Positions 47,910-62,974 are shown, counted from the first letter of the stretch. The stretch: DNA of 64,000 nucleotides from an uncultured Acidimicrobiia bacterium (GCA_963836205.1 CAWIIV010000020.1:1-64000), one strand, 5' to 3'. Program-made: numbers and translations. Notes: generated from the letters alone by a model not told the origin.

Positions 47910-47916
47910 GGTCTCA

Positions 47917-47932
47917 TCGTACTAGTGTTCGA
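47917..47932 (-). promoter_or_regulatory. LexA SOS box TCGAAC-ACTA-GTACGA
   Basis: One mismatch to the actinobacterial consensus TCGAAC-N4-GTTCGA, directly upstream of the DUF222-HNH start. Confidence 0.75.
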
Positions 47933-48060
47933 TCAATAGCGCAAGTCGCTAACTGGTAAATGGGGCAGCGGTTTGGCCTTCTATGACTCCGATGTTTTCG
48001 ACCTCGTCATCCGCAATCGGCGGAGCAGTGTCGACGCGAGCCCTGCCGTCCTTGGCCCCT

Positions 48061-48402
48061 CTACTGCCTTCCTCGGTGCGGTCGCCGTCGTCGGCACGAG
48101 AAGACCATGAGCTCGCTGCACTCGACACCCCGATCGACCAGCTCCTGACGGGCGGCGGCGGCGGCGGCGTCGGCGACCACCAGTTGCAGGCCCCGCATCG
48201 AGCCGGCCGCCATCTCCCGTTGCGATGGCAGGTCGCCGAACACGATCGAGCAGGCCGAGCCTCGAGGCGTCAACTGGGTGACATGCATGTGCTCGTTGGT
48301 GGTCTCGTGATCGAGGTCGAAGCCGACCTGGTAGCGGTAGAAGGCGATCGAGGCGGCGATGTCGCTCACCGGGAGGACGACGACTTCCAGGGTCCAATCC
48401 AC
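48061..48402 (-). pseudogene. VOC/glyoxalase, C-terminally degenerate
   Basis: LEVVVLPVSDI..., QLTPRGSACSI, GLQLVV; lacks the terminal DPDGN motif. Confidence 0.6.
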
Positions 48403-48658
48403 GATCCTCGTCCTCCGCCTCAGGTGGTGACTGGCCGGTAGTTGCAGAGGTGCACCCCGGTGGTGGTTGTCGTGGTGGACACCAGCTCGAGCCTCCGGAC
48501 CAGCCCGTCGTCGGGGAAGAGTCGCTTACCGCCACCGAGCAACACCGGCTCGATCATCAACCGGTACTCGTCGACGAGTTCGTGTCGGATGAGTTGCGAG
48601 GCGAGATTGCTGCTCCCCATCACCTGGATGTCACCGCCCGGCTCCGCCCGGATTTTCC

Positions 48659-51365: not shown

Positions 51366-52763
51366 TCAGGCAGGATAGAGGCCGTGGTGAACATCCGGTC
51401 GGTGACGACCGCCTTCCTCGTGGCCCTCGCCTTGACCGCCTGTGGCGACAAGGCCGAGCGCACCAACTTCCGTCCGCCCGAGCTCGGCGTGCCCGCGACC
51501 GCGGCCGACATCACCGGCATCTACCGGTCGGTCCACCAGGGACTCCTCCAACTCCGGGACAACGGCGAGCTCAACCTCATCCTTCCCGAAGGACCCGGCG
51601 CCACCACCGGAAGCTTCACCCTCGCCCACGGCGCGGCGACGGTCCGCACCGCCAACTGCGCCGACCAGGTGGGCGCCTACACGATCGAAGTGGTGGCCGG
51701 ACCCATCGTCAGCAAGTCGACCCTCGTCTTCGAGGCGGTCGACGATCCCTGCGCCGAGCGCCAGAAGTACCTCACCATCGACCCCTGGGTCTACGCCGAC
51801 TCCTGAGGGGCCTCGACTCCTGAGGGGCCGACTCCTGAGGGGCCGACTCCTGAGGGGCCGACTCCCCGCCACCGACTCCTGAGGGGCCGACTCCCCCGCC
51901 ACCGACTCCTGAGGGGCCGACTCCCCCGCCACCGACTCCTGAGGGGCCGACTCCCCCGCCACCGACTCCTGAGCGGCCGACTCCCCCGCCACCGACTCCT
52001 GGCCGGCGCCCAGCCGCTCGGCCACCAGCGTGGCCAGATCGTCGAACACGTACTCGGGAGGGTCGTCGATCGGCTCCTCCGCCGTCACCCCGCTCATCAC
52101 GAGGGCGAACGGCACGCGCAGGCGGCGGGCCATGAGCCCGTCGGTCGACGGCCGGTCGCCGACCAGGATCGTCTCCCCCTCGCTCCCCCGCTCGTCCCCG
52201 AGCCGCTCGGCCAGCAGCGTGGCCATGGGCTTGTAGGGCTTGCCCGCCACCTCCGCCTCGACGCCCGCGGCCGCCACCACCGCGGCCAGGATCGCACCCC
52301 CGCCGGGGATGGGGCCGTCGGGCGTGGGATAGGTGGTGTCGTCGTTGGTCCCGATCAGGCGGGCGCCGTGGTGGACGGCGAGGAAGGCGGCCGTCAAACG
52401 GTCGTAGTCGAAGTCCCGGTGGAAGCCGACCACGACCGCGTCGGCGTCGCCGTCCCGGACGACCTCGACGCCCCGGGCCTCGAGCGCCTCCCGCACCCCG
52501 GCTCCGGCGCACAGCAGGGCCGTGCTCCCCGGCTCCAGCAGCGACGCCGCCGCCTGGGCCGACGTGACCACCTCGTCGGCGGTGGCCGGCACGCCCATCC
52601 CCTCCAGCTTGGCCACCAGCTCGGACACGCGGGGACCGGCGTTGTTGGTGAGGAAGATGACTCGGTGCCCAGCCTCACGCAAAGTGGCGATGGCTTCAGT
52701 CGAACCCGGTATCGGTTGCTCCGACAACCACACCACGCCGTCGAGATCGAGAATCCAGGCCAC
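51366..52763 (-). CDS. HAD-IIA hydrolase (NagD-like); core ends near 52000, then reads into the VNTR (true stop uncertain)
   Basis: [23 protein letters not shown]. Confidence 0.88.
51384..51806 (+). CDS. Lipoprotein of unknown function
   Basis: Lipobox LTAC; DDPCAER motif. Confidence 0.75.
   Translation: MVNIRSVTTAFLVALALTACGDKAERTNFRPPELGVPATAADITGIYRSVHQGLLQLRDNGELNLILPEGPGATTGSFTLAHGAATVRTANCADQVGAYTIEVVAGPIVSKSTLVFEAVDDPCAERQKYLTIDPWVYADS
51795..52000. repeat. 15/30-bp VNTR (CCGACTCCTGAGGGG / CCGACTCCCCCGCCA)
   Basis: About 13 half-units sharing CCGACTCC at the convergent gene junction. Confidence 0.92.
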
Positions 52764-52847
52764 GGGAGGCCCCTTTGTAGCAGCCGGCGACGGCCGACCC
52801 CGACGACCCCCGCCGGCGACCCCAGCGACGTCGCGAGTGCCCACGCC

Positions 52848-54749
52848 TCAGCCGGGCACCGCGCCCAGGAAGCGGGCCGCAATCGGCGCCGCCACCTGAC
52901 CGCCCACGCCGCCACCCTCCACCAGCACCGCGAACGCCAGCGAGCCGCGGAAGCCTATGAACCAGGCGTGGGTCTCGGGCGGGTCGGCCCGGCCGAACTC
53001 GGCCGTGCCCGTCTTGCCGGCGACCTCCAGGCCGGCGACGGCCGCGGCCGTGCCGGTGCCGGTGCGCACCACCTCCCGCATGAGGTCGGCCAGGACGGCG
53101 ACCGTCGCCGGCGCCAACACGACCGGCGCCACCGCCACCGCCGACGGCGAACCGGCACCCAGGACGCGGGGCGCCCGCCACGTCCCCGAGGCCACCGCCG
53201 CGGCCACCGAGGCCATGTGGAGGGGGCTGGCCAGCACCCGGCCCTGGCCGATGGCGGACGACGCCCGGTCGGCGGCGTCGCCCGGGTCGGGAAAGTCGCC
53301 CCCCGACGCGCCCACCCCCGCGTCGTAGTCGACGCCGAAGCCGAATCGCGACGCAGCGGCGACCAGATCGGCGTCCGACAGCTCGTCGGCGAGGGTGACG
53401 AATGCGGTGTTGCACGAATGGGCGAAGGCCGTGCGGAAGGGAATGGAGCCGAAGGACTCGTCCTCGAAGTTCTTGAACGGCTTGCCCCCGATGGTGGCCA
53501 AGGGCTCGCAGGCGACGACCGTGTCGGGGCCGATGCCGCTGGCCACCAACGCCTCCGCCGTCACCACCTTGAAGCTCGAACCGGGCGGGTACTGGCCGTC
53601 GAAGGCCCGGTTGAACGCCTCGTCGAGGGGGCGGGCCGACACTGCTCGCACGTCGCCGGTGGCGGCGTCGATGGCCACGATGGCCGCCGGTTCGTCGATG
53701 CCCACCAACGCCTGGTCGGCCGCCTGCTGAACCCGGGGGTCGAGGGTGAGGACCAACGGCTCGGGCGGGGTGCCCGGGAACTGGGCCACGACGGCGACCT
53801 CCACGTCGGAGGCGTCGACGAGGCGAACCTCGCCCGACGGCAGCCCCGCCAGTTGCCGCTCGTAGGCCGCTTCGAGGCCGGACAGCCCGACCTGGTCACC
53901 TGCCTCGTAGGGCGCACCGAGCTGGTCGAGGCGCTCGGCGGTGATCTCGCCCACCCGTCCGAGCAGGTGGAGGGCGAACTCGTCGGTGGGCGTGACCCGG
54001 CCCGAGCCCTGCTGGAAGAAGACCCCGGGCACCGGCTCGAGCACAGCCCGGATCGGCGCGAACCGGTCGCGCTCCACCCGGGAGACGGGGACGAAGTGGC
54101 CGGGCCCGACGCCCGGGTCGTCGAGGGCGGCCGCGACCGCGGCGGGGTCGGTGCCGAGCTGCTGGGTGAGGACCGCCTGGACCTGGGCCAGGTCGAGGAT
54201 GCGATCGGGTTGCAGGCCGACGACGACCGTGTCGCTGGTGGACGCCAGGGTGGCGCCGGCGGCCCCGACGATGGGCGCCCGGGTGGGCCACACCACACCC
54301 AGCCTGAAGCGCAGGTCGGGGCGGAGGGCGGGATGGAGCGACGACGGGTCCCAGGCGATCCGCCAGGCGTCGGCGTCGGCGCCGTCGTCGTCCTGGTCCC
54401 GGCGGACGAGGGCGAGGCGGCCGTCGTACTGAAGCCGGCCGATCCCGCCCACCTCGAGGTCGGCGGTGAACGTGGCCTGCAGCTCGTCGACCAGCACGGT
54501 GCGGAAGGCGGCGCTGGTGACCCGCAGGTCGTCGCGCATGGCCGTGACCGCCTCGGCGAAGCCGGCGGGGGCACCGTCGACGACCACAGCCATGGCCGCG
54601 GGATCGAACCGCTCCCACGCGGCCAGGTAGGTCGACACCTCGGCCGTCGCCAATCGGGGCTCGTCGTCGCCGCGGCTGAGGAAGTACGCCCCGCCTCCGC
54701 CCGCGAGGAGCACGGCGACGATGCCGACGACGAGCAGCTTCCGCCTCAA
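52848..54749 (-). CDS. Penicillin-binding transpeptidase with MecA_N-like domain
   Basis: N-terminal TM; PGSSFK (SxxK), HSCN, GKTGTAE. Confidence 0.92.
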   Translation of the reverse strand: MRRKLLVVGIVAVLLAGGGGAYFLSRGDDEPRLATAEVSTYLAAWERFDPAAMAVVVDGAPAGFAEAVTAMRDDLRVTSAAFRTVLVDELQATFTADLEVGGIGRLQYDGRLALVRRDQDDDGADADAWRIAWDPSSLHPALRPDLRFRLGVVWPTRAPIVGAAGATLASTSDTVVVGLQPDRILDLAQVQAVLTQQLGTDPAAVAAALDDPGVGPGHFVPVSRVERDRFAPIRAVLEPVPGVFFQQGSGRVTPTDEFALHLLGRVGEITAERLDQLGAPYEAGDQVGLSGLEAAYERQLAGLPSGEVRLVDASDVEVAVVAQFPGTPPEPLVLTLDPRVQQAADQALVGIDEPAAIVAIDAATGDVRAVSARPLDEAFNRAFDGQYPPGSSFKVVTAEALVASGIGPDTVVACEPLATIGGKPFKNFEDESFGSIPFRTAFAHSCNTAFVTLADELSDADLVAAASRFGFGVDYDAGVGASGGDFPDPGDAADRASSAIGQGRVLASPLHMASVAAAVASGTWRAPRVLGAGSPSAVAVAPVVLAPATVAVLADLMREVVRTGTGTAAAVAGLEVAGKTGTAEFGRADPPETHAWFIGFRGSLAFAVLVEGGGVGGQVAAPIAARFLGAVPG

Positions 54750-54885
54750 GGTCGACCATTCTGCCCCGCCGGCAGGCCCCTATTGCGGCAATCGCCGGAG
54801 CAGGAAAATGTCGGCGGCAACCGTCGGCGATTGTCTTGGTAGCGTGATTGCCCCGTGGACCACGGGCCTTGGTCGGGAAAAGGGG

Positions 54886-56121
54886 ATGGTCATGAACTGT
54901 TCGAGGCGGCGTACGTCCATCCGGATCGGCATCGTCGTGGCCGCGGTGATCGCGCTCGGTGGTGTGTCTGTCCCACCCGTGACCGCGGCCGCGGCCACCC
55001 AGGTCGTGCTCACCGACGTCACGACGGCGCTCAACGTCGGCGACGTCGACAACCTGTTCGTGGCCCTGCGCGACGGCACCAATGCCAACGACACCGGCTA
55101 CGTGGGCACGGTCACGTTCGTCGCCGACTGCGGGGAGTGCTTCACGATCACGCCCAACAACGGGGGCGGATCGACCCGGGCGTACACGTTCGTGCCCGCC
55201 GACGGCGGCCAGAAGGCGATGGCCCTCACCTGGACCGAAGCCGGCACCCACCTCCTGGCGGTGGCCGCCACCCTCACCGGCGACACGGTCGACACCGACA
55301 GCGTGCCCGGCATCGTCGTGGGGCCGATGCCGACGACCACAACCTCCACCACCTCGTCGACCACCACCACCTCGACCTCCTCCACCTCAACGACGAGCAC
55401 CTCCACGACCACGACCACCACCACCACGACCGTCCCGCCCGCGGGGGCCAACCAGGCCCGGCCCCTCGTGGTGCGGGCCGACACCTGGTACCTGCGCAAC
55501 AGCCAGACCACGGGAAACGCCGACACCGTCTTCGTCTACGGCAACCCCACGGGCGACATCCCCGTCACCGGCGACTGGGACGGCAACGGCTCCGTCACCC
55601 CGGGCATGGTTCGGGGCGACTCGTGGTTCCTGCGCAACGCCAACTCGACGGGTACGGCCGACGCCTCCTTCCTCTACGGCGACCCGGGCGACACGCCCGT
55701 CGTCGGCGACTGGGACGGCAACGGGACGGTGACCGCGGGCGTGGTCCGTGCCGGGACCTGGTACCTGCGCAATTCGAACACCCAGGGCGTGGCCGATCTC
55801 AGCTTTGTCTACGGGAACCCGGGCGACATCCCGGTGGCAGGCGACTGGGACACGACCAAGTCGACCACACCTGGTGTGGTGCGCAACGGCGTGTGGTTCA
55901 TCCGCAATTCGAATACCCAGGGCACGGCCGACGGCAGCTACGGCTACGGCAACGCGGGCGACAAACCGCTGGCCGGCGATTGGGACGGCATCGGGACGAT
56001 GACACCCGGCGTGGTGCGGGGCAGCTCGTGGTTCCTCCGCAACGGCAACACCACCGGCGTCGCCGACGTGACCTTCACCTACGGCAACCCCACCGACACG
56101 CCCCTCCTCTGGCGGCCGTAA
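54886..56121 (+). CDS. Secreted protein: Ig-like domain, Thr/Ser stalk, C-terminal GDWDGNG (FG-GAP-like) repeats
   Basis: Signal peptide; five WYLRNS..G.AD..F.YG..GD.P..GDWD-type repeats (last truncated). Confidence 0.85.
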   Translation: MVMNCSRRRTSIRIGIVVAAVIALGGVSVPPVTAAAATQVVLTDVTTALNVGDVDNLFVALRDGTNANDTGYVGTVTFVADCGECFTITPNNGGGSTRAYTFVPADGGQKAMALTWTEAGTHLLAVAATLTGDTVDTDSVPGIVVGPMPTTTTSTTSSTTTTSTSSTSTTSTSTTTTTTTTTVPPAGANQARPLVVRADTWYLRNSQTTGNADTVFVYGNPTGDIPVTGDWDGNGSVTPGMVRGDSWFLRNANSTGTADASFLYGDPGDTPVVGDWDGNGTVTAGVVRAGTWYLRNSNTQGVADLSFVYGNPGDIPVAGDWDTTKSTTPGVVRNGVWFIRNSNTQGTADGSYGYGNAGDKPLAGDWDGIGTMTPGVVRGSSWFLRNGNTTGVADVTFTYGNPTDTPLLWRP

Positions 56122-56402
56122 CGCCCCTGGCGACGCCGGGTCGGTGCCCAGGCGGAGGTGGATCCAGGGCGGGAGCTCGCTGGTGGCTGCGGCCGGGCAG
56201 GCGCCGGTCGCGCTCGCCCGGGAGTCGACCAGGGCGGCGTCGGCGGTGACTGCCCCGGCGTAGCCCACCGGCGGGTAGAAGTAGGCCTCGGCCCGGGGGT
56301 ATGCGGCGCAGGTGCCTGCGGTGGGGCCGAACCAGATGGACTGGGTGATGGTCGCGGCCACCCGATCTTGCCGCGTCCGCCGCCGACTGCATGACAGTTC
56401 GG

Positions 56403-58679
56403 TCAGTTGTTGAGCAGGTGGGCCGTCGCCCGGCGGCCGGGGAGCTTGACGACCTCGATGGCGTTGGGGAGCTGTTCCTTGATGGCGTTGTCGTGGGTGA
56501 CGACGAGGACCTGGCGGAATCGGTTCTTCAACCGCTCCAGGGCGAGCAGCATCCGCTCCTTGCGCTCGTCGTCGAGGGGGCCGAAGACCTCGTCGAGGAC
56601 GAGCAGCCCGACCGCCCCGCCGGCCTGGAACTGGACCTGCTCGCTCACCGCCACCCGGAGGGCGAGGTTGGCCAGGTCGGTCTCCGAGCCCGAAAAACGG
56701 GTCATCCCGTAGAGGAGCCCGGCGTCGCGCAGTTGGATCTCGTAGGTCTCCGGGTTGACGATGAGCTCGTCGTACTCGTGGTCGGTGAGCTCGGCGAACA
56801 GCGCCCCCGCCTTCTCCGACAGCCGGGGCCCCACCGACGCCACCAGCTCGTTGCGGAAGGCGTTGAGCAGGTCGGCCAGGCGGGCCAGGTGGCGGGCGTC
56901 GTCGCCCAGGCCCGCCAGCCGCTCGTGCTGTTCGAGGGCCTCGGCCAGCCGACGGCCCTCGGCGTCGGCCTTGGCCCGGGCCTGGACGGCCGCCACCCGG
57001 GCGTGGCCGGCGGCGAGGGCGGCCTCGTCGGCGACGGCCCGCTGCCGATCGCGCACCGCGACCGCCTGGGCCACGTCGTCGGGCCGGTAGTCGAGGCCCT
57101 TGGCCTTGGCCCGCAGGTTGTCGAGCCGGCCCTTGCTCTCGTCGGCCGCGGCCCGCTCCACGTCGAGCTCGGCCTTGGCCGTCACCCGCCGTTCGAGGCG
57201 CCCGGCGATGCGTTGGCACTCGTCGGCCGCCTGGCGCCGGCGGTCGACCTCGGCCGCCAGCCGGGCCACCTCCCCCTCCTCGACCGGCTCGCCGTGGGCG
57301 GCCTCGGCCCGGGCCAGGGCCGACTCCGCCTCCGCCCGGCGGGCCCGGGTGGCCTCGTACGCCTTCCACGCATCGCGGGCCAGCTTGAGGTCGATGAGTA
57401 GGGCATTTGCCGCCTCGGCGGCGACGCTGGCCGCGAACCCGGCCCGCCGCCGGTCGAGCTCGGCCTCCACCAGGGCCCCCTCCGCCACCGCCAGCTCGGC
57501 CGCTCGGTGCGCCTGCACCGACTCGAAGGCGTCGCCCAGGGCCTGGCCGCAGAGCGGGCAATCGGCCTCGCCGGTGAGCTCGCCCGAGCGATCGACCGCG
57601 GCCGCGGCCCGCTCCCTCGTGGCGCGGGCCGCGTCGAGCACGGCCTGCACCCGGGACACCTCGGTGCGGGCCACGTCGAGCTCGGCCCGGGCCGCCTCGT
57701 AGCCCTCCTCGTCGGGCGGGGGTGGGTCCTCCGCCGGCGGCAGGTTGGCGACCGCGGCCCGAGCCGCGACCACCGCCTCCACCCGCCGCAGGCGAGCCTC
57801 GGCGTCGCGCCAGCCCTCGGCCTCGGCCTGGAGCGACGCCAGGCGGTTGGCAGCCGCCTCCAGCGCAGCCAGCTCGTCGGCCAGCTTGGCTGCCCCGGCC
57901 AGGGCCCGCTCGAACTCCGCCCGCACCGCCCGCCCCTCGGCCACCAGCTTGTCGTGCTCCTGGCGGACGCCCTCCAGCCGGTCGGCGCTGCGGTGGGCGG
58001 CCTCGAAGTGGACCCGTGCCGTCTCCAGGGCGGTGTCGAGCTCGGACGCCTTCCACTCCAGGGCGGTGGCCATCGACACCGCCTCCTGCAGCTCGGCCTT
58101 GACCCGGCTGAGGTCGGGGAGCATGTCGCGCAGGCGCTCGAACGTGGTGGTGGCCGACCGGGCGTCCTTGCGGGCCAGGTCGCGCGCGCCGTCGAGGGGC
58201 GTGATCCCCAGGAGCTGGAGGACGAGCTTGCGGCGCTCGCTCGGCGGCTGGTCGCTGAAGGCGGCGAGTTGCTTCTGCTCGGCGAAGACGGAGGCCCGGA
58301 AGGCGGCGTCGTCCATTCCCAGGATCGAGTGGACATAGCGGGCGGTGTCGCGGACGCCCTCGGCCACCTGCATCCCGTCGGCGTGGGCCTGGGCCTTCAC
58401 CGTCGAGCCGGCCCCCGCGATCGTGCGCCGGACCAGGTAGAGGTGGCCCTCGTGCTCGAACTCGACCTCGCTGACGCACTCCGACCTGAGGCCGGCGGTG
58501 CGGATCTCGTCGATCGAGGTGCGGGAGCGGCCGAAGAGCGTCCACCGGATCGACTCGACGATCGTGCTCTTGCCCCCTCCGTTGGGCCCGTAGATGCCGA
58601 CCAGCCCCGGCGGGATCTCGAGGTCGAGCGGCTCCTCGTAGACCCGGTAGTTGCGCAGGTGGAGCCGGGTGATGCGCAT
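56403..58679 (-). CDS. sbcC: Rad50/SbcC SMC-like ATPase
   Basis: RITRLHLRNYR, GPNGGGKS, coiled coil, CPLCG zinc hook, FSGSE signature, LDEVFGPLD, VTH. Confidence 0.93.
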   Translation of the reverse strand: MRITRLHLRNYRVYEEPLDLEIPPGLVGIYGPNGGGKSTIVESIRWTLFGRSRTSIDEIRTAGLRSECVSEVEFEHEGHLYLVRRTIAGAGSTVKAQAHADGMQVAEGVRDTARYVHSILGMDDAAFRASVFAEQKQLAAFSDQPPSERRKLVLQLLGITPLDGARDLARKDARSATTTFERLRDMLPDLSRVKAELQEAVSMATALEWKASELDTALETARVHFEAAHRSADRLEGVRQEHDKLVAEGRAVRAEFERALAGAAKLADELAALEAAANRLASLQAEAEGWRDAEARLRRVEAVVAARAAVANLPPAEDPPPPDEEGYEAARAELDVARTEVSRVQAVLDAARATRERAAAAVDRSGELTGEADCPLCGQALGDAFESVQAHRAAELAVAEGALVEAELDRRRAGFAASVAAEAANALLIDLKLARDAWKAYEATRARRAEAESALARAEAAHGEPVEEGEVARLAAEVDRRRQAADECQRIAGRLERRVTAKAELDVERAAADESKGRLDNLRAKAKGLDYRPDDVAQAVAVRDRQRAVADEAALAAGHARVAAVQARAKADAEGRRLAEALEQHERLAGLGDDARHLARLADLLNAFRNELVASVGPRLSEKAGALFAELTDHEYDELIVNPETYEIQLRDAGLLYGMTRFSGSETDLANLALRVAVSEQVQFQAGGAVGLLVLDEVFGPLDDERKERMLLALERLKNRFRQVLVVTHDNAIKEQLPNAIEVVKLPGRRATAHLLNN

Positions 58680-58694
58680 GGTGGGCGGGCCCGC

Positions 58695-59813
58695 CTAGTC
58701 GGCCGCGGACTCGACGGCCCGGGCCAGGTAGTCGTCGCCCATGGTGCGGATGCGGTCGCGGTCGAAGCCGACCAGGTCCTGGCCCTGAACGTACTCGCCC
58801 CACTGGGCGGGCAGCGACTGGAGCTCGGGCAGCTGGGCGTGGCCCTCCGACTCCCGGAACCGGGGCTCCAGCTTCACCAGCAGGGCCTTGGCCGACGCCT
58901 CCCGCACCGCCTCCCGGTCGAGCAGGTGGAACGCCTCCGGCTCGACCTGTTCGAGGTAGAGGCGGGCGACCGCCCCGTTGGGCACCGCCGCCGCCCGTTC
59001 CAACACCGCCGCCTGGACCTCGGCCGGCGATAGCCCGAGGGCGTGCACGGAGGGGAGGGTGACCAGGGGCCGCTGGCCGGTGAGGGCGTGATGGGTGCAC
59101 ACGCCGGTGTCGGTGTCGAGGGTGACGATGCCCTTGGGCTCCTCGGGGCTGTCGGCGAAGGAGAACGTGTCGGTGGACCCGGCGTACCAGATCCCCTTAG
59201 CCACCTCGGTGTGGAAGTGGTAATGCCCGAGGAGGACGAGGTCGGCCTTCAGCTCGGACGCGTCGACCTCGATCTCGTTGATGTCGGCGTGCCGGGGCTC
59301 GACCTGGGGCACCCGGGGGTGGGTGAGCAGGAGGTTGGTGCGGTCGAGGCTGCGGTTGCGGTCGGCGTGGTGGAGGGCCTCGATGGTGTCGGCCACGGTG
59401 AGCATCTGGGGGACGGCGTGGATGGTGAGCCCGGCGAAGTCGAACCGCTCGTACTGGAGGCGGTGGGCGAACTTGACGTCGGTGAACGTGTCGGCCAGGG
59501 CCGAGTAGGGGCTGCCCGTGCCCGGCAGGCGGGGTGTGTCGTGGTTGCCGGTGATCACCACCAGGGGGACGCCGTGGGCCCGCACCCTCGACATGGCCCG
59601 CTGGGCGATGCGGAACGACCGGTAGGTGGGACGGGGATGGTCGAAGATGTCGCCCAGCCACACCACCAGGTCGGGCGCCTGGGCCAGGGCCAGCTCCACG
59701 GCCGCCTCGAACGACTGCTCGAAGTCACGCTCGCGCTGGTTGACCCCTTCGGGCGTGGTGAACGAGTAGTACGACCGCCCGAGGTGGGCGTCGCCCAGGG
59801 CCGCGATCTTCAC
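58695..59813 (-). CDS. sbcD: Mre11/SbcD calcineurin-like nuclease
   Basis: GDAHLG, GDIFD, GNHD, LTH, GHYH, YAGS. Confidence 0.93.
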   Translation of the reverse strand: MKIAALGDAHLGRSYYSFTTPEGVNQRERDFEQSFEAAVELALAQAPDLVVWLGDIFDHPRPTYRSFRIAQRAMSRVRAHGVPLVVITGNHDTPRLPGTGSPYSALADTFTDVKFAHRLQYERFDFAGLTIHAVPQMLTVADTIEALHHADRNRSLDRTNLLLTHPRVPQVEPRHADINEIEVDASELKADLVLLGHYHFHTEVAKGIWYAGSTDTFSFADSPEEPKGIVTLDTDTGVCTHHALTGQRPLVTLPSVHALGLSPAEVQAAVLERAAAVPNGAVARLYLEQVEPEAFHLLDREAVREASAKALLVKLEPRFRESEGHAQLPELQSLPAQWGEYVQGQDLVGFDRDRIRTMGDDYLARAVESAAD

Positions 59814-59833
59814 GCCGCCCGCCCCCTCGAACT

Positions 59834-59942
59834 GGTGACGAAAGTGGTGGCCAGGGCAACCGAAAACGTCACCGGTTCGGGGTTGCGTCGCCAACAGGTG
59901 ACGATTTTGGTGGCCAGGGCAACCGAAAACGACACCGGTTCG
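59834..59942. repeat. Two 46-bp palindromic REP-like units (63-bp period)
   Basis: GGTGACGA...TGGTGGCC-AG-GGCAACCGAAAACG.CACCGGTTCG at 59834 and 59897. Confidence 0.85.
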
Positions 59943-59955
59943 AAGGTCGGGCGCA

Positions 59956-61530
59956 TCAGTCGACCAGGGCGGCGATGTTGGGTGGCACCACGGGGCGGGG
60001 GACGGGCGGGGGCGGGCAGTCGCGCACCACGTGCGACCACAGGTGGACCTTGGCCGGCACCGCGAAGGGGGCGTGGAGGTTGGCCACCAGGCACTCCCCC
60101 GGCATGAGCGTCTGGATCTCGGGCCCGAGGGCGGAGATGTCCTGCTTCGACGACGAGCGCAGGATGGTGCGGTCCTTCTCGTCGGCCAGGCCCAGGATGA
60201 AGAAGGTGTTGAACTGGCTCAGCAGCTCGCCGTCGAGGAGCTTGGGTTGCTGGGTGACGGCGCACAGCCCGACCTTGAACTTGCGCCCCTCCCGGGCCAC
60301 CCGGGGAAAGACGTTGGACTCCTTGTCCTTGTTGGCCGACAACACCCGCTGCGCCTCCTCCAGGACGATGGCCACCACCGGCAGCCGCTCGTGGACCTCG
60401 GGGTGGTCGAGGTAGGCGGCCGACCATTCGTCGAGCACCTTGCGGGCGAGGAACGAGGCGACCAGCACCTCCTCGGTGGACCCCAGGCCGCTCACGTCGA
60501 CCAGCACCACCTTGCCCTCACGCAGGTCGCGCAGCACCGCCGAGCCGACCGACACGTGAGCGTCGGCCGCGACGCACGGCAGCTCCACGATGCGCCGGGC
60601 CCGCCGGTGCACCACCTGCAGGGTGTTGAGGGCGACCCGCGAGTTCAGCTCCACGTCGCGGAATCCGGGGAGGTCCTCCACCGCCGAGAACTCGAGCATC
60701 CACGAGAGTCCCTCGCCGCCCGATCGGGAGTAGTGGCGCTCGAGCTCGAACAGGGCCTCCTCCTGGGGGCGGCTCCAGTCGTAGGCGGTGCGCAGGTCGT
60801 CGACGGTGAGCTCGCCCAGCCCCACCCGCAGGGTGGACGTGTTGGGCAGGCTGCGGGCGGCGTAGGTGCGCAGCCGCTCCCCCGCCCACGGGTGGCGGGC
60901 CAGCTGTGTGCGGTACTCGCCGTGGGGGTCGACCAGGAGCAGCCCGTATCGGCCCTGGGCCCGCATGACCCCGCCCGCCAGCACCATCATCAGGTTGGAC
61001 TTCCCCATGCCCGTAGTGGCGAAGATGCCGACGTGGGTGGCCAGGCTGTCGCCGGGGATGCCGACCTCGAAGTCGACGACGGTCTCGCCACTGCGCAGGT
61101 TGCCGACGGGCAGGTCGCCCATGCGGGTGCGGAGGAAGGCGAAGTCGGCCGGCTCCGGCGCCACCACCCTGGAGAACTGGGTGGGCAGGCTCTTGGGCTT
61201 GCGGAACTCGAGCCCGTCCGGGGTGAGGTAGCCCAGGCAGCGGCAGGTGGCGACGCGGTAGGTGCGGCGGGACTGCTCGTAGAGGCGATGGGCACCGTCG
61301 TCGCCCCGGTCGTCGTCGGCCAGGAGGGTGCCTGCCACCCGCTCGGCCCATCCCGGCTCCCGGTGCTCGCTGCCGTAGGTGACGTCGACGATGCGAAAGA
61401 GGTAGCGCCGCCCGGTGGCCTCGTCGACCGCCACCAGCAGCTCGCCCAGGAACAGGTCTTCGTCGGGCCCGGCCCGGAACACGCCCTCCAACACGTTCTT
61501 GCCGAACAGCCGGCCCCGTGAGTCACCCAT
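59956..61530 (-). CDS. herA: HerA helicase/translocase (HAS barrel + FtsK/HerA ATPase)
   Basis: HVGIFATTGMGKS, DPHGEY, LEEAQR, REGRKF, TQQP, LSQFNT. Confidence 0.92.
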   Translation of the reverse strand: MGDSRGRLFGKNVLEGVFRAGPDEDLFLGELLVAVDEATGRRYLFRIVDVTYGSEHREPGWAERVAGTLLADDDRGDDGAHRLYEQSRRTYRVATCRCLGYLTPDGLEFRKPKSLPTQFSRVVAPEPADFAFLRTRMGDLPVGNLRSGETVVDFEVGIPGDSLATHVGIFATTGMGKSNLMMVLAGGVMRAQGRYGLLLVDPHGEYRTQLARHPWAGERLRTYAARSLPNTSTLRVGLGELTVDDLRTAYDWSRPQEEALFELERHYSRSGGEGLSWMLEFSAVEDLPGFRDVELNSRVALNTLQVVHRRARRIVELPCVAADAHVSVGSAVLRDLREGKVVLVDVSGLGSTEEVLVASFLARKVLDEWSAAYLDHPEVHERLPVVAIVLEEAQRVLSANKDKESNVFPRVAREGRKFKVGLCAVTQQPKLLDGELLSQFNTFFILGLADEKDRTILRSSSKQDISALGPEIQTLMPGECLVANLHAPFAVPAKVHLWSHVVRDCPPPPVPRPVVPPNIAALVD

Positions 61531-62502
61531 CTAGAACCGCTCCATGAGCCCGTGGCGGTCGGCGAAGGCCCGCTCCCGGACGTCGTGGGGCACGCCCACC
61601 CGGTCGAAGTGGCCCTCGACCTCGAGCCACGCCTCCTCCCGCAGCCAGCCCGGGCAGGCGGCCAGCCGGTCGGCGACGGTGAGCGGGTAGGGGTAGCCGG
61701 GAAAGGCGGCGTCGTCGGACAGGCCGGCGAGGGCGGACAGGACCGGCTCGGCGTCGACGTCGCCGGGCAGATCGACCCGGAAGGCGAAGCGGGCGTCGGG
61801 GTCGAGGCGCGCCGCCACCACCTGGATGCCGGCGTCGACGTCGGGCCGGGTGCGGGCGACCGGAGTCCACCACATGGCACGTGTACCGAGGAGGACTTCC
61901 GCCTCCAGCTCGAGCTGGCCCAGCAACGGCGCCCCACCCCGGGCCAACGACGATCGCTTGGTGACGCCCGCCAACGTGACCCCCGCGGCCCCGGCCCGTT
62001 CCAACAGCCCCTTGAGCCACGCCGACGGGATGCGCCAGTCGGGCACCAGGTCGCCGTCGACCAGCACCACCGCGCCCCGCTCGGCCTCGGCGATGCACTG
62101 CTCGACGGCCACCCACTCCTCGCGGTCGCGGAGGAGGTTGAGGTCGATCTTGGCGTCGAGGCGGATGTCGAGGCCGAGGTCGGCCGCCACCGCCCGCTCC
62201 TCGCCACAGCCGACCAGCCGGGCCTGGAGCTCGCCCTCGTACTCCACGCACTCCCCGTCGCGGAACCGCACCCGGGCGGCCCGGGTGACCACCAGCTGCA
62301 GGCAGCGGGCGTCGGCCACAAGGGCCTGGCCGCCGTCGACGGCCCACACCTCGTCGGGCGCCGCGGCCCGGGCGAGGGGCCGGGGCTCGATGTCGTAGGA
62401 GAAGGCGAGGTCGGTGCCGGTGGGGTCGCTCAGGACGCTCCCGCCACCGGTGAGCAGGACCGCCAGGCGCTCGGCGGCGACGGCCAGGGTTGCAGAGGAC
62501 AT
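61531..62502 (-). CDS. nurA: NurA nuclease (RNase H-like)
   Basis: AVDGG, LVDGDL, GVTKRS, GYPYPL; stop abuts herA ATG. Confidence 0.88.
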   Translation of the reverse strand: MSSATLAVAAERLAVLLTGGGSVLSDPTGTDLAFSYDIEPRPLARAAAPDEVWAVDGGQALVADARCLQLVVTRAARVRFRDGECVEYEGELQARLVGCGEERAVAADLGLDIRLDAKIDLNLLRDREEWVAVEQCIAEAERGAVVLVDGDLVPDWRIPSAWLKGLLERAGAAGVTLAGVTKRSSLARGGAPLLGQLELEAEVLLGTRAMWWTPVARTRPDVDAGIQVVAARLDPDARFAFRVDLPGDVDAEPVLSALAGLSDDAAFPGYPYPLTVADRLAACPGWLREEAWLEVEGHFDRVGVPHDVRERAFADRHGLMERF

Positions 62503-62510
62503 CGCCCACC

Positions 62511-62532
62511 AGCCTGCCAAGCCGGTGCGACA
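62511..62532 (-). promoter_or_regulatory. RecA-NDp/PafBC-like promoter TGTCGC-N10-CAGGCT
   Basis: Matches TGTCGG-N10-TAnnnT spacing with 2 mismatches, 8 nt before the nurA ATG. Confidence 0.55.
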
Positions 62533-62533
62533 G

Positions 62534-62547
62534 TTACAAGCTTGTAA
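62534..62547. promoter_or_regulatory. Perfect palindrome TTACAAGCTTGTAA, candidate operator
   Basis: AT-rich 14-bp palindrome; related copy TTACAAGCACGTAG at 62988-63001. Confidence 0.55.
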
Positions 62548-62561
62548 GTCCAGGCCCATCG

Positions 62562-62609
62562 AACCGGTGACAGATTGCGGGGTCCTGACCCCCAAAAACG
62601 TCACCGGTT
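62562..62609. repeat. Hairpin/REP-like element related to the 59834 repeats; possible tfoX terminator
   Basis: AACCGGTGAC...GTCACCGGTT arms with inner GGGGTC/GACCCC. Confidence 0.65.
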
Positions 62610-62611
62610 GA

Positions 62612-62974
62612 CTACTTCTTCCCCTTCTTCACCTTCGGCGGCAGAGCACCGATCAGCGCCAACGACGTGGCGATCCACGGCTCGGCCTCGGCCGGTGTCG
62701 CCCGCCAGGCCGACGGCAGGGTGACGTAGCCGCCCATGGGACGCTCCTCCGGCCCGAACGGTCCCCCGCCGTGCTCGGTCGTCAGCCGCTCCCGATCACC
62801 CTCGTCCAGCTTCACGCCCACGTCGGCGCCGAACAGGCCCATGAACATGTTCCCGTTCACGAACGCGCCCAGCTGGCCGAACATGGGCTTGACCTCGACG
62901 CGGGGATCGTCAGGAACCAGCGAGCGGAAGAACTCCTTGTCGTCCTCAGTCGGCTTGGGCATCTCCATTCCCAC
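62612..62974 (-). CDS. TfoX/Sxy N-terminal domain protein
   Basis: KPMFGQLGAFVNGNMF, F.P..RPMGGYV.LP, W...S...LPPK. Confidence 0.88.
   Translation of the reverse strand: MGMEMPKPTEDDKEFFRSLVPDDPRVEVKPMFGQLGAFVNGNMFMGLFGADVGVKLDEGDRERLTTEHGGGPFGPEERPMGGYVTLPSAWRATPAEAEPWIATSLALIGALPPKVKKGKK

What the first reader, a model, noticed from the sequence alone, without database searches (positions are those of the whole stretch)
56403..62502. Complete archaeal-type NurA-HerA-Mre11-Rad50 DNA end-resection operon in an actinobacterium
Seen: four co-directional, tightly packed genes. nurA (DGG/DG/GYPYPL) abuts herA (Walker A ATTGMGKS, DPHGEY, REGRKF), then an Mre11/SbcD nuclease and a Rad50/SbcC ATPase with a CPLC hook. 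Known: this four-gene set is the thermophilic archaeal DSB-resection operon. Characterised bacterial HerA-NurA (e.g. Deinococcus) is usually a two-gene unit, and actinobacteria normally resect with AdnAB/RecBCD. Inference: either an uncharacterised actinobacterial resection machine, or an SMC/HerA-based anti-plasmid/anti-phage system (cf. Lamassu/Wadjet, HerA-based defences).
Basis: partly seen in the sequence, partly recalled or inferred. Interest (0 to 1): 0.85.

Follow-up and report, generated by a model that had tools for sequence, protein, structure and literature searches.

The report
Bacterial NurA-HerA-Mre11-Rad50 DNA-repair operon
An uncultured soil-type actinobacterium carries, as one tightly packed operon, the four DNA-end-processing genes best known from heat-loving archaea, apparently switched on by the actinobacterial DNA-damage regulator, and the same operon turns out to be widespread but unstudied in bacteria.

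Summary
On the minus strand lie nurA (61531-62502), herA (59956-61530), mre11/sbcD (58695-59813) and rad50/sbcC (56403-58679). All catalytic motifs are intact. It is not a one-off. The HerA orthologue is in 24 of 24 sampled genomes of the same family. About 37 of 401 sampled Actinomycetota have it, with mre11 directly downstream in 35 of those 37. The same gene order occurs in Bacillota (Pontibacillus, Priestia). One paper notes it in Oceanithermus. The nearest named NurA relatives are from mesophilic Euryarchaeota (Thermoplasmatota, Methanomicrobiales), Zixibacteria and the Bacillus cereus group. Upstream of nurA sits a conserved promoter without a -35 box, of the PafBC type (GTC, N12, -10 box, start codon 8 nt on). 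In this genome the same motif precedes recA, radA, uvrB, a UvrD-like helicase, a RecQ-like helicase and ogt. The genome also has an AdnAB-like pair and two Ku genes. No second SbcD, no RecC and no RecJ were found. Best reading: a vertically inherited, damage-inducible machine for processing DNA ends, not a defence island. It is a new bacterial member of a known kind and has not been characterised experimentally.

The parts
62511..62547 (-). Conserved nurA promoter. It comprises the 14-bp palindrome TTACAAGCTTGTAA (62534-62547), a TGTCGCAC '-26 element' (62525-62532), an 8-nt spacer and the -10-like hexamer CAGGCT (62511-62516). The ATG follows 8 nt downstream, so the mRNA is probably leaderless (inferred).
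   Evidence: The block is conserved in 28 aligned upstream regions of relatives. The GTC[AG][CG]-N10-NANNNT-N5-11-start arrangement is found upstream of nurA in 50 of 82 loci, against 11 of 410 random windows. The same motif precedes recA, radA, uvrB and other repair genes in this genome. Its architecture equals the PafBC consensus tGTCgg(N10)tA(N3)T (PMC8635444, passage seen). No sigma-70 -35/-10 promoter is found in 55900-62750.
61531..62502 (-). nurA: NurA-family nuclease, 323 aa
   Evidence: PF09376 scores 26.8 bits against a cut-off of 21, and 24/26 orthologues hit it. The profile hits Sso NurA 2ygk at 7.7e-6. Invariant residues are D56 G57 G58, E129, D149 G150, K182, D244, D264, G269-Y-P-Y272 and H317. 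The motif III His is Asp in 14/14 Acidimicrobiales rows and His in the 12 other rows.
59956..61530 (-). herA: HerA/FtsK-superfamily hexameric ATPase-translocase, 524 aa
   Evidence: DUF87 scores 71.7 bits. The best NCBIfam matches are the archaeal HerA models, far under their cut-offs. Sso HerA 4d2i matches at 3.6e-21 with the single sequence and 1.3e-34 with the profile. Walker A (G174-S178), Walker B (E391 E392) and REGRKF (R413-F418) are invariant in 9/9 orthologues.
59828..59942 (-). Two tandem copies of a REP-like ~52-nt palindromic repeat (59891-59942 and 59828-59879) fill the herA-mre11 spacer. A third copy lies at 62560-62610 between tfoX and nurA.
   Evidence: Read directly. The 16-mer seed has 94 matches at <=2 mismatches in the genome. 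The repeat is absent at this spot in the same-genus locus L041, where the spacer is 28 nt. It is probably a passenger, not part of the machine.
58695..59813 (-). mre11/sbcD: Mre11-type phosphoesterase nuclease, 372 aa
   Evidence: Metallophos scores 45.9 bits. Motifs I-V are conserved. D8 H10, G54 D55 with D58, G89 N90 H91, H165, and G196 with H199 are invariant in 13/13 rows. H197 is present in 12/13 rows; the Pontibacillus row has Asp. The profile's best PDB match is M. jannaschii Mre11 at 3.7e-36, ahead of bacterial SbcD at 1e-23 to 3.5e-18. It is the only SbcD-like match in the genome.
56403..58679 (-). rad50/sbcC: Rad50/SMC-type ABC ATPase with zinc hook, 758 aa
   Evidence: SMC_N, AAA_23 and SbcC_Walker_B match. 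NCBIfam gives Rad50 PRK01156 129.6 bits and sbcc 123.3. PDB gives Mj Rad50 at 3.2e-20 and E. coli SbcC at 5.7e-17. Walker A G31-S38, Q135, hook C374-P-x-C377, signature S663 G664 E666, Walker B D696 E697, D703 and H729 are invariant in 13/13 rows.

Best explanation
This is a chromosomal, vertically inherited four-gene operon, nurA-herA-mre11-rad50, that encodes a machine for processing double-strand-break ends. By homology (inferred, not shown here), an Mre11-Rad50 complex recognises, tethers and cleans DNA ends. A HerA hexamer then pushes the duplex into a NurA dimer, which degrades the 5' strand (or both strands) and leaves 3' tails for RecA. The operon is read from a conserved promoter that lacks a -35 box and has the architecture of PafBC-dependent promoters of the actinobacterial DNA-damage response. 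It probably gives a leaderless mRNA, so it is most likely induced by DNA damage together with recA, radA, uvrB and repair helicases. It works beside an AdnAB-like helicase-nuclease and Ku-dependent end joining. It may supply the SbcCD function and the 5'-3' nuclease function, for which no other gene was found in this 88.6%-complete genome.
For: (1) Identity and intact active sites are shown for all four proteins. (2) The genes are packed at 0, 142 and 15 nt, and start and stop codons abut or overlap in relatives. (3) The synteny is conserved over deep divergence. 14 of 15 distant actinobacterial loci show all four genes in order, and the 15th is cut by a contig end (HerA identity 42-57%, NurA 23-37%). 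Among the best Acidimicrobiales loci, 59 of 80 show all four in order, 16 are cut by contig ends and 5 lack a partner gene in the flank held. In the phylum sample, 35 of 37 genomes with a HerA orthologue have mre11 directly downstream, and in the other 2 the genes sit at contig ends. The same order is found in Pontibacillus and Priestia. (4) The distribution is core-gene-like: 24/24 genomes of the family and 21/21 of another family, f35. There is no compositional anomaly. The neighbours are housekeeping genes: a PBP, a HAD hydrolase and a TfoX_N protein. (5) On regulation, a GTC-N12-(-10) motif is conserved upstream of nurA in 50/82 loci against 11/410 control windows. It has the canonical form tGTCgg-N10-TATCCT in a second deep clade. 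In this genome the motif has 32 hits, 11 of them 5-11 nt before an ORF start. The reversed genome gives 9 hits and 0 before a start; eight permuted motifs give 0-3 before a start. The genes behind it include recA, radA, uvrB, a UvrD+HRDC helicase, a RecQ-like helicase and ogt. A tandem pair of WYL-domain genes, the candidate PafBC, is present. (6) On repertoire, an AdnAB-like pair and two Ku genes are present. The only SbcD-like match is the one in the cluster. RecC and RecJ were not found.
Against: No activity, binding, expression or fold was tested. The Pfam NurA match is weak (26 bits, C-terminal only), and a whole-genome scan with the model did not ring. All NCBIfam equivalog scores lie far below their cut-offs, so none of the four is an 'equivalog' of the characterised archaeal proteins. 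The cluster can be split. In 15 of the 59 complete loci, unrelated metabolic genes sit between herA and mre11. Two loci show no mre11 or rad50 within 7 kb. The four proteins therefore need not act as one machine. The same promoter motif also precedes three Uma2 'restriction endonuclease-like' genes and an AbiEi-like gene, so membership of the regulon does not by itself exclude a defence role. The -10 hexamer starts with C or G rather than T, and the -26 element reads GTCGC or GTCAC rather than GTCGG. PafBC binding is therefore an inference from architecture. A 2026 study of the Thermococcus enzyme questions whether HerA-NurA resects at all and suggests wholesale dsDNA degradation (PMC12977600, abstract and passages seen). 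At order level the cluster is patchy: f7 0/12 and f18 0/5.
Confidence: 0.68

Rival explanations
1. There are two independent, merely co-located modules. One is an ordinary bacterial SbcCD (Mre11-Rad50) that cleaves hairpins and protein-blocked ends. The other is a NurA-HerA pair with a separate task, such as fork processing, degradation of broken chromosomes or chromosome segregation. They share a damage-inducible promoter but do not cooperate physically.
For: In 15 of 59 complete Acidimicrobiales loci, 0.9-5 kb of unrelated genes separate herA from mre11: tryptophan dioxygenase, kynureninase, WS/DGAT, NUDIX and acyl-CoA dehydrogenase. In L097 a patatin-like gene lies between nurA and herA, so the nurA-herA pair can be split as well. 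In L062 the separated mre11 carries its own copy of the promoter block. Related Mre11-like genes (30-33% identity) occur in 30/31 genomes of family f40 with no orthologous HerA; 3 of 31 have only weak HerA-like matches around E 1e-12. The characterised Deinococcus and Thermus NurA-HerA work as a two-gene unit (PMC9960219 and PMC12977600, passages seen).
Against: The four genes have stayed adjacent in the same order down to 23-30% protein identity within Actinomycetota and into Bacillota. Every sampled genome with the HerA orthologue also has the Mre11 orthologue next to it (35/37, with 2 at contig ends).
Confidence: 0.17
2. It is an anti-phage or anti-plasmid defence system: a HerA-plus-nuclease degradation module joined to an SMC/Rad50-like sensor, in the manner of Lamassu, Wadjet, MADS, Sir2-HerA or DUF4297-HerA.
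For: PADLOC gives partial matches. HerA hits HerA models (best 1.8e-23) and mad8 (1.3e-19). Rad50 hits mad3 (3.9e-30) and LmuB (9.1e-23). Recent papers propose antiviral dsDNA degradation for HerA-NurA (PMC12977600 and PMC13748450, passages seen). The same promoter motif also drives Uma2-type and AbiEi-like genes.
Against: NurA and Mre11 have no PADLOC match. The HerA and Rad50 hits are at the level of the ATPase domains and are weaker than the matches to repair proteins: the HerA profile scores 1.3e-34 against Sso HerA and 1e-14 to 1e-17 against defence HerAs. The cluster is present in 24/24 and 21/21 genomes of two families, unlike the strain-level patchiness of defence islands. No effector genes (Sir2, DUF4297, LmuA, JetABCD) or other defence genes are adjacent. 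There is no match in 50,697 phage records. Only 8 of 72,556 plasmid records match, and the two good ones lie on ~0.9-1.1 Mb replicons beside gyrA/gyrB and murA.
Confidence: 0.1
3. It is a DNA-transfer or uptake-linked translocase, on the model of Thermus TdtA/HepA or archaeal CedD. HerA would pump incoming or outgoing DNA while the nucleases process it.
For: A TfoX_N (competence-regulator-like) gene lies directly upstream at 62612-62974. HerA gives a sub-threshold match to CedD (64.6 bits against a cut-off of 600).
Against: The TfoX gene is found beside the cluster only in the same-genus locus L041. It is missing from the other 79 near loci and all 20 distant ones. No membrane or pilus genes are nearby. 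The promoter belongs to a repair regulon.
Confidence: 0.03

Closest known systems
Archaeal Mre11-Rad50-HerA-NurA operon (Sulfolobus, Pyrococcus, Thermococcus)
   Same: The same four protein families sit in one co-directional cluster with all catalytic motifs. The best solved-structure matches of HerA, Mre11 and Rad50 are the archaeal proteins.
   Different: The host is a bacterium. The gene order here puts nurA first; the archaeal order herA-mre11-rad50-nurA is recalled, not checked. All NCBIfam equivalog scores are far under their cut-offs. The closest named NurA relatives are mesophilic Euryarchaeota (Thermoplasmatota at 1.3e-58, Methanomicrobiales), not the studied thermophiles (Sso NurA at 7.7e-6). 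Rad50 is short at 758 aa. The operon has a PafBC-type promoter.
Deinococcus radiodurans / Thermus thermophilus NurA-HerA (HepA)
   Same: It is a bacterial nurA-herA pair in that order and is implicated in end resection (PMC9960219 and PMC12977600, passages seen).
   Different: Those are two-gene units. Here mre11-rad50 follow in the same operon. No Deinococcus HerA or NurA chain appeared among the PDB matches. Thermus TdpA/TdpB matched only weakly (1.4e-17 and 0.22).
Oceanithermus profundus nurA-hepA-sbcD-sbcC
   Same: This is the only printed mention I found of the same four-gene bacterial arrangement (PMC5448004, passage seen).
   Different: It is a different phylum (Deinococcota), it was mentioned in passing and it has not been characterised. 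No link to regulation or distribution was drawn.
Bacterial SbcCD (E. coli, Staphylococcus, Thermotoga)
   Same: It has the Mre11/Rad50 fold families, the sbcD-then-sbcC gene order and a zinc hook.
   Different: The Mre11 profile matches E. coli SbcD only over the first ~90 residues (3.5e-18), against full-length matches to archaeal Mre11 (3.7e-36). Here the pair is fused into an operon with nurA-herA.
Mycobacterial AdnAB and the PafBC regulon
   Same: The resection function is analogous. The promoter has the same architecture as PafBC targets (PMC8635444). An AdnAB-like pair coexists in this genome.
   Different: The proteins are unrelated (UvrD-like motors with PD-(D/E)XK nucleases). No paper in the searched library holds both 'NurA' and 'PafBC'.
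HerA-based and SMC-based defence systems (Sir2-HerA, DUF4297-HerA, Lamassu LmuB, MADS mad3/mad8)
   Same: They share the ATPase folds, and PADLOC gives partial matches.
   Different: There is no associated effector, no island context and no mobile-element association. The distribution is core rather than patchy.

Membership tests
NurA nuclease (PF09376) | Match to the family model above the curated cut-off | tested here: met
   The score is 26.8 bits against a cut-off of 21, over the C-terminal 50 residues only. 24 of 26 orthologues match, the best at 9.5e-14. Caveat: the six-frame scan of the whole genome with the same model gave no match at E<=0.001.
NurA nuclease (PF09376) | Motif I (..DG), motif II (..DG) and the C-terminal motif III (L..AH...), as listed in PMC13748450 (passage seen) | tested here: met
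   D56-G57 and D149-G150 are invariant in 26/26 rows. GYPYPL..A[D/H] is present, with the His replaced by Asp in the 14 Acidimicrobiales rows. The three motifs align in the same order to Sso NurA 2ygk.
NurA nuclease (PF09376) | RNase-H-like fold forming a toroidal dimer; Mn-dependent 5'-3' exo/endonuclease activity | not testable with these tools
HerA (FtsK-HerA superfamily) | DUF87 ATPase core with Walker A, Walker B and an arginine-rich REGRKF segment | tested here: met
   PF01935 scores 71.7 bits. These residues are invariant in 9/9 orthologues. The profile matches Sso HerA at 1.3e-34.
HerA (FtsK-HerA superfamily) | N-terminal HAS-barrel that docks NurA | tested here: inconclusive
   There is no PF09378 match at E<=0.01. 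About 140 conserved N-terminal residues precede the ATPase core. The fold was not predicted.
HerA (FtsK-HerA superfamily) | NCBIfam equivalog score for archaeal DSB-repair HerA | tested here: not met
   Scores are 88.6 bits against a cut-off of 800 and 73.5 against 970. The protein is a relative, not an equivalog.
Mre11 / SbcD | Five calcineurin-type phosphoesterase motifs (D.H, GD..D, GNH, H, GH.H) | tested here: met
   D8 H10, G54 D55 with D58, G89 N90 H91, H165, and G196 with H199 are invariant in 13/13 rows. H197 is present in 12/13 rows; the Pontibacillus row has Asp. Metallophos scores 45.9 bits.
Mre11 / SbcD | Curated subfamily or equivalog score (TIGR00619 sbcd; archaeal Mre11 models) | tested here: not met
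   TIGR00619 scores 52.6 against 77.65; Mre11_Sulfo scores 57.9 against 500.
Rad50 / SbcC | ABC-ATPase head (Walker A, Q-loop, signature, Walker B, D-loop, H-loop) split by a long insert that bears a CxxC zinc hook | tested here: met
   All of these are invariant in 13/13 rows, with the hook at C374-P-x-C377 in the middle of the 758 residues. Head matches to Mj and Pfu Rad50 and to E. coli SbcC were found. The coiled-coil nature of the insert is inferred, not computed.
Rad50 / SbcC | Curated equivalog or subfamily score | tested here: not met
   PRK01156 scores 129.6 against 847; TIGR00618 scores 123.3 against 478.5.
Archaeal-type four-gene DSB-resection operon | nurA, herA, mre11 and rad50 co-directional and contiguous, with synteny conserved in relatives | tested here: met
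Archaeal-type four-gene DSB-resection operon | Same gene order as in thermophilic archaea | tested here: inconclusive
   The order here is nurA-herA-mre11-rad50. The archaeal order (herA-mre11-rad50-nurA) is recalled; the papers that define it were not held.
PafBC-dependent (RecA-NDp) promoters | GTC triplet at about -26, ten further bases after GTCgg, then a -10 hexamer tA(N3)T, with no -35 box (PMC8635444) | tested here: met
   The sequence TGTCGC-N10-CAGGCT lies 8 nt before the ATG. No sigma-70 promoter is found. The arrangement is conserved in 50/82 loci against 11/410 controls. The canonical form is seen in L022-L025. Deviations: the fifth and sixth bases read GC or AC rather than GG, and the first base of the hexamer is C or G.
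PafBC-dependent (RecA-NDp) promoters | Bound and activated by a PafB-PafC heterodimer after DNA damage | not testable with these tools
   A tandem WYL-domain pair exists at C14:21866-23009. Its identity as PafBC and its binding were not tested.
Known defence systems (Lamassu, Wadjet, Sir2-HerA, DUF4297-HerA, MADS) | Presence of the system's other components and effector next to the ATPase | tested here: not met
   PADLOC gives only ATPase-level hits for HerA and Rad50 and none for NurA or Mre11. The neighbours are a PBP, a HAD hydrolase and a TfoX_N protein.

The most novel reading that the evidence does not exclude
The Mre11-Rad50-HerA-NurA machine is not an archaeal speciality. It is an old, horizontally exchanged resection pathway shared by mesophilic Euryarchaeota and several Gram-positive and other bacterial lineages. 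In Actinomycetota it was wired into the PafBC DNA-damage regulon. There it provides the SbcCD function and the 5'-3' long-range resection function in organisms for which no RecBCD or RecJ was found, in parallel with AdnAB. Because the same operon exists in tractable Bacillota (Priestia, Bacillus cereus group strains), the disputed question of whether HerA-NurA really cooperates with Mre11-Rad50 in resection could be settled by bacterial genetics.
Probability: 0.35. Interest if true: 0.65.

Novelty: new member of a known kind. Interest (0 to 1): 0.45.

Why it matters
Recent texts limit bacterial herA-nurA largely to Deinococcus-Thermus. [quoted passage not shown] The data here contradict that. 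A conserved four-gene operon is a core feature of whole actinobacterial families and also occurs in Bacillota. It appears to sit in the main actinobacterial DNA-damage regulon. That adds a third end-processing system, beside AdnAB and Ku/LigD, to the repair repertoire of a large group of uncultured soil actinobacteria. It also points to gene exchange with mesophilic archaea. And it offers bacterial models in which to test how Mre11-Rad50 and HerA-NurA work together. The proteins themselves are of known kinds, so the gain is in distribution, regulation and experimental access, not in a new mechanism.

Tried and rejected
No fold or binding evidence exists either way.

(3) Expression. The look-up of sequencing runs listed no RNA holder, and all DNA holders had small shares (<=0.14).

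(4) The full 45-nt promoter weight matrix found only the nurA site itself in the genome. It was too specific, so I replaced it with the short motif.

(5) I first read the 14-bp palindrome TTACAAGCTTGTAA as an SOS-like operator. It has only 3 sites at <=2 mismatches in the genome. One of them precedes a MerR+DUF433 gene. No repair regulon emerged from it, and its role stays unexplained.

(6) The canonical mycobacterial pattern TGTC[AG]GTG-N8-TA...T has 0 hits in this genome. The local variant is GTC[AG]CA.

(7) The protein Atlas did not hold the window's HerA. A stored homologue gave only leads: Actinomycetota, Zixibacteria, Thermoplasmatota, Cyanobacteriota, Chloroflexota.

(8) The search for homologous proteins returned only close Acidimicrobiales relatives among its best 120, so it did not help with breadth.

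(9) A fully taxon-labelled phylogeny could not be made. The FastTree of 142 NurA rows has many open forks and long branches. I draw no direction of transfer from it.

(10) The literature search with taxon names returned microbiome papers only. Constantinesco 2004 and Iyer 2004 were not held. Iyer 2004 or its supplements may already describe bacterial four-gene neighbourhoods. Supplements were closed.

(11) The inserts between herA and mre11 in relatives were checked as possible extra components. They are unrelated metabolic genes.

Claims that include unpublished genomes: the tallies include G008, G009, G015, G017, G021, G023, G041, G058, G121, G127, G159, G187 and G357. Among the genomes carrying the cluster only G127 is unpublished. 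Locus L011 (from G009) entered the scans.

Full report
OBSERVATION.
The window is 72% G+C and every frame is full of spurious ORFs. Third-position G+C (0.89-0.96) picks out four consecutive minus-strand genes.
- nurA runs 61531-62502.
- herA runs 59956-61530.
- mre11/sbcD runs 58695-59813.
- rad50/sbcC runs 56403-58679.

herA starts on the base after the nurA stop codon. mre11 and rad50 are 15 nt apart. The 142-nt herA-mre11 spacer is filled by two copies of a repeat (see 'In passing').

IDENTITY OF THE FOUR PROTEINS.
Pfam gives these scores:
- NurA: 26.3 bits against a cut-off of 21, covering only the last 50 model positions.
- DUF87/HerA: 71.7 bits.
- Metallophos: 45.9 bits.
- SMC_N, AAA_23 and SbcC_Walker_B for the fourth protein.

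In NCBIfam the archaeal HerA, Mre11 and Rad50 equivalogs are the best or among the best matches. All lie far under their cut-offs, so these proteins are relatives, not equivalogs.

NurA is the weakest case. The single sequence has no match in the PDB. A whole-genome scan with PF09376 did not ring. Three results nevertheless support it.
- 24 of 26 orthologues match PF09376, the best at 9.5e-14.
- A profile of the 26 hits Sulfolobus NurA 2ygk at 7.7e-6, with motifs I, II and III in the same order.
- NCBI names cluster relatives 'DNA double-strand break repair nuclease NurA'.

The catalytic residues are conserved in all four proteins.
- NurA: D56-G57-G58, E129, D149-G150, D244, D264, GYPY and H317 are invariant. 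The motif III His is Asp in the 14 Acidimicrobiales rows.
- HerA: Walker A, Walker B and REGRKF.
- Mre11: all five phosphoesterase motifs.
- Rad50: Walker A, Q-loop, CPxC hook, signature, Walker B, D-loop and H-loop.

Against solved structures the profiles rank archaeal proteins first.
- The HerA profile scores 1.3e-34 against Sulfolobus HerA and 1e-14 to 1e-17 against defence-type HerAs.
- The Mre11 profile scores 3.7e-36 against M. jannaschii Mre11. It scores 1e-23 to 3.5e-18 against bacterial SbcD, and E. coli SbcD matches only over the first ~90 residues.

'Archaeal-type' is therefore a fair description of likeness.

DISTRIBUTION AND SYNTENY.
The window is contig C20 of a 4.05-Mb, 25-contig genome that is 88.6% complete. 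Named relatives are Acidimicrobiales/Acidimicrobiia MAGs and one isolate, Acidiferrimicrobium sp. IK.

The HerA orthologue is found in 24 of 24 sampled genomes of the same family. At order level it is patchy; families f7 (0/12) and f18 (0/5) lack it. In an even sample of 401 genomes of the phylum, 67 have a HerA match at 1e-10. About 37 of these are orthologues (44-98% identity), and they include family f35 at 21/21.

A second scan with Mre11 (208/401 at 1e-5) shows tiers.
- The top tier coincides with the HerA-orthologue genomes. By coordinates, 35 of the 37 have mre11 directly downstream of herA on the same contig and strand. In the other two (G133, G280) both genes sit at contig ends.
- Four genomes (G074, G089, G188, G331) have the Mre11 tier without a HerA match.
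- Family f40 (30/31) has a more distant SbcD-like gene without an orthologous HerA.

I fetched 15 distant loci. 14 hold all four genes in the order nurA-herA-mre11-rad50, and one is cut by its contig end. Start and stop codons often overlap.

Of the 80 best Acidimicrobiales loci:
- 59 show all four genes in order.
- 16 are cut by contig ends.
- 5 (L085, L088, L102, L104, L109) lack a partner gene in the 1.3-7 kb held.

In 15 of the 59, 0.9-5 kb lies between herA and mre11. The inserted genes are unrelated metabolic ones.

Outside the phylum the same order occurs on a 0.9-Mb replicon of Pontibacillus sp. There it is annotated NurA / ATP-binding protein / metallophosphoesterase / SMC family ATPase and lies beside gyrB, gyrA and murA. 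It also occurs on a 1.08-Mb Priestia megaterium replicon. No phage record matches (0 of 50,697).

The NurA profile finds 1551, 1109 and 201 representatives at 1e-3, 1e-10 and 1e-30 among 1.84 billion. The few clusters with organism names are these:
- Thermoplasmatota / Thermoplasmata
- Methanomicrobiales / Methanolinea
- Zixibacteria
- the Bacillus cereus group

A quick tree of 142 NurA rows groups the three high-G+C actinobacterial clades together. It places a low-G+C actinobacterial clade with the Bacillota row and the set that holds the Thermoplasmatota row. Many forks are open, so I infer exchange between the domains but no direction.

REGULATION.
Upstream of nurA a ~45-nt block is conserved. 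Its consensus is TnACAnGCTTGTAA-ctGTCgCAcc-N-cTTGGnAnnCT-N7-9-start. Read as a promoter, it has a GTC triplet, twelve further bases and a -10-like hexamer, with the start codon 8 nt later. No sigma-70 -35/-10 pair is found in the region.

I tested this in three ways.
- In this genome TGTC[AG]CA[CG]-N8-NANNNT has 32 hits, 11 of them 5-11 nt before the start of a long high-GC3 ORF. The reversed genome gives 9 hits and 0 before a start. Eight permuted 8-mers give 0-3 before a start.
- The genes behind the hits are recA, radA, uvrB, a UvrD+HRDC helicase, a RecQ-like helicase and ogt. They also include three Uma2 genes, a PNPOx-like gene, an OB-fold gene, an AbiEi-like gene and nurA itself.
- The arrangement lies upstream of nurA in 50 of 82 loci with enough upstream sequence, against 11 of 410 random windows. 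In a second deep clade (L022-L025) it has the canonical form, for example TGTCGG-N10-TATCCT-N6-ATG.

A tandem pair of WYL-domain genes, the candidate PafBC, is present. Induction by damage and a leaderless transcript are inferences; no RNA data were available.

REPAIR REPERTOIRE OF THE GENOME.
- Two adjacent UvrD-like proteins with C-terminal PD-(D/E)XK domains form an AdnAB-like pair (C6:117416-123036).
- Two Ku genes are present.
- The only SbcD-like match is the one in the cluster.
- There is one HerA.
- No RecC and no RecJ were found.
The genome is incomplete, so these are 'not found', not 'absent'.

INTERPRETATION.
The most likely reading (about 0.68) is a vertically inherited, damage-inducible end-processing machine of the archaeal Mre11-Rad50-HerA-NurA kind, working beside AdnAB and Ku. 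What is shown: gene identity, intact motifs, deep synteny, a core-like distribution and a shared promoter motif with repair genes. What is inferred: the assembly (HerA hexamer with NurA dimer; Mre11-Rad50), 5'-strand resection, PafBC control and the leaderless start.

The main rival (0.17) is that nurA-herA and mre11-rad50 are separate modules that merely travel together. The lineage-specific insertions and the separate promoter copy before mre11 in L062 speak for it. The unbroken co-occurrence speaks against it.

A defence role (0.10) has some support: ATPase-level PADLOC hits, the recent antiviral proposals for HerA-NurA (PMC12977600, PMC13748450) and the Uma2 and AbiEi-like genes in the same regulon. 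The core distribution, the housekeeping context, the lack of effectors and the absence from phages and ordinary plasmids argue against it.

A DNA-uptake role (0.03) rests only on a TfoX_N neighbour that is specific to the genus.

WHAT IS KNOWN, AND NOVELTY.
- Reviews say that NurA and HerA homologues occur in Actinobacteria, Firmicutes, Cyanobacteria and Deinococcus-Thermus but have been studied only in Deinococcus (PMC8708640, passage seen).
- One paper notes sbcD-sbcC downstream of hepA in Oceanithermus (PMC5448004, passage seen).
[quoted passage not shown] The data here contradict that.
- No paper in the searched library holds both 'NurA' and 'PafBC'.
- The two founding comparative papers were not held and may already mention bacterial neighbourhoods.

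I file this as a new (bacterial, actinobacterial) member of a known kind. It is real, widespread and uncharacterised, with a new regulatory link, but it brings no new mechanism. Interest 0.45.

IN PASSING.
- A REP-like palindromic repeat is dispersed in the genome, with 94 seed matches. Three copies lie in or beside the cluster.
- The 14-bp palindrome at the nurA promoter recurs before a MerR+DUF433 gene.
- uvrB is split over two frames in the assembly.
- An identical promoter-like stretch occurs four times in the genome.

Noticed in passing
window 59828-59942 and 62560-62610; genome-wide in G000: A REP-like palindromic repeat of about 52 nt (GAACCGGTGAC ... GTCACCGGTTCG, with an inner G+C-rich hairpin). 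The 16-mer seed has 94 matches at <=2 mismatches in the 4.05-Mb genome, often in tandem pairs. Two copies fill the herA-mre11 spacer and one lies between tfoX and nurA. The repeat is absent from the same spacer in the same-genus locus L041.
   Followed up: partly
window 62534-62547; G000 C12:138930; G000 C8:181995: The perfect 14-bp palindrome TTACAAGCTTGTAA lies just upstream of the GTC element of the nurA promoter. Its right half, CTTGTAA, is almost invariant in relatives. Only three sites with <=2 mismatches exist in the genome. One lies about 80 nt before a MerR_1+DUF433 regulator gene, which may be its binding protein. Its role is unexplained.
   Followed up: partly
G000: C6:437864, C7:148235, C24:249101, C19:89498, C1:39362, C24:187689, C6:219778, C7:162932, C25:44336 and others: A candidate PafBC-type DNA-damage regulon of this Acidimicrobiales genome, with the local motif TGTC[AG]CA[CG]-N8-NANNNT. 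It covers recA, radA, uvrB, a UvrD+HRDC helicase, a RecQ-like helicase, ogt, three Uma2-family endonuclease-like genes, a PNPOx-like gene, an OB-fold gene and an AbiEi-like gene. Most have a start codon 6-10 nt after the hexamer, which suggests leaderless mRNAs.
   Followed up: partly
G000 C14:21866-23009 (L140, L142): Two adjacent WYL-domain genes on the same strand are candidates for the PafB-PafC pair. A third WYL gene lies at C23:64407.
   Followed up: no
G000 C24:249129-251175 (L137): uvrB is split over two reading frames in the assembly. The N-terminal helicase part is in one frame; the UvrB_inter, Helicase_C, UvrB and UVR parts are in another. This is either a frameshift or an assembly error.
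   Followed up: no
G000 C6:196014, C6:527409, C11:28257, C15:122629: Four identical copies of a stretch that contains TTGACG...TGTCGCACCCCCGTGCGAGGAT. It is probably the end or promoter of a repeated mobile element.
   Followed up: no
window 62612-62974 (-): A small TfoX_N-domain gene (120 aa) lies directly upstream of the operon. Among the fetched loci it is found beside the cluster only in the same-genus locus L041. Its own upstream region holds a 3-mismatch copy of the palindrome.
   Followed up: partly
window 46767-50003: An ISL3-family transposase gene (48690-50003, +) and a DUF222/HNH endonuclease gene (46767-47921, -) lie about 6-10 kb from the operon. A PBP transpeptidase (52848-54749, -) and a HAD hydrolase (51366-52844, -) lie between them and the operon.
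   Followed up: no
L062:9398-9424; L097, L100, L106, L112, L090: In some Acidimicrobiales the operon is split by unrelated genes: tryptophan 2,3-dioxygenase, kynureninase, patatin, WS/DGAT, NUDIX and acyl-CoA dehydrogenase. In L062 the detached mre11 has its own copy of the palindrome-plus-GTC promoter block.
   Followed up: yes
proteins P0160, P0154, P0186, P0221, P0189, P0266: Named members of the same NurA subfamily come from Thermoplasmatota, Methanomicrobiales (Methanolinea), Zixibacteria and sporadic Bacillus cereus-group strains. The family is shared between mesophilic archaea and several bacterial phyla.
   Followed up: partly
window 54721-56121 (+) and 55098-55526 (-): The stretch just downstream of rad50 holds overlapping high-GC3 ORFs on both strands with no Pfam match. 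It is unclear which of them, if either, is a gene.
   Followed up: no
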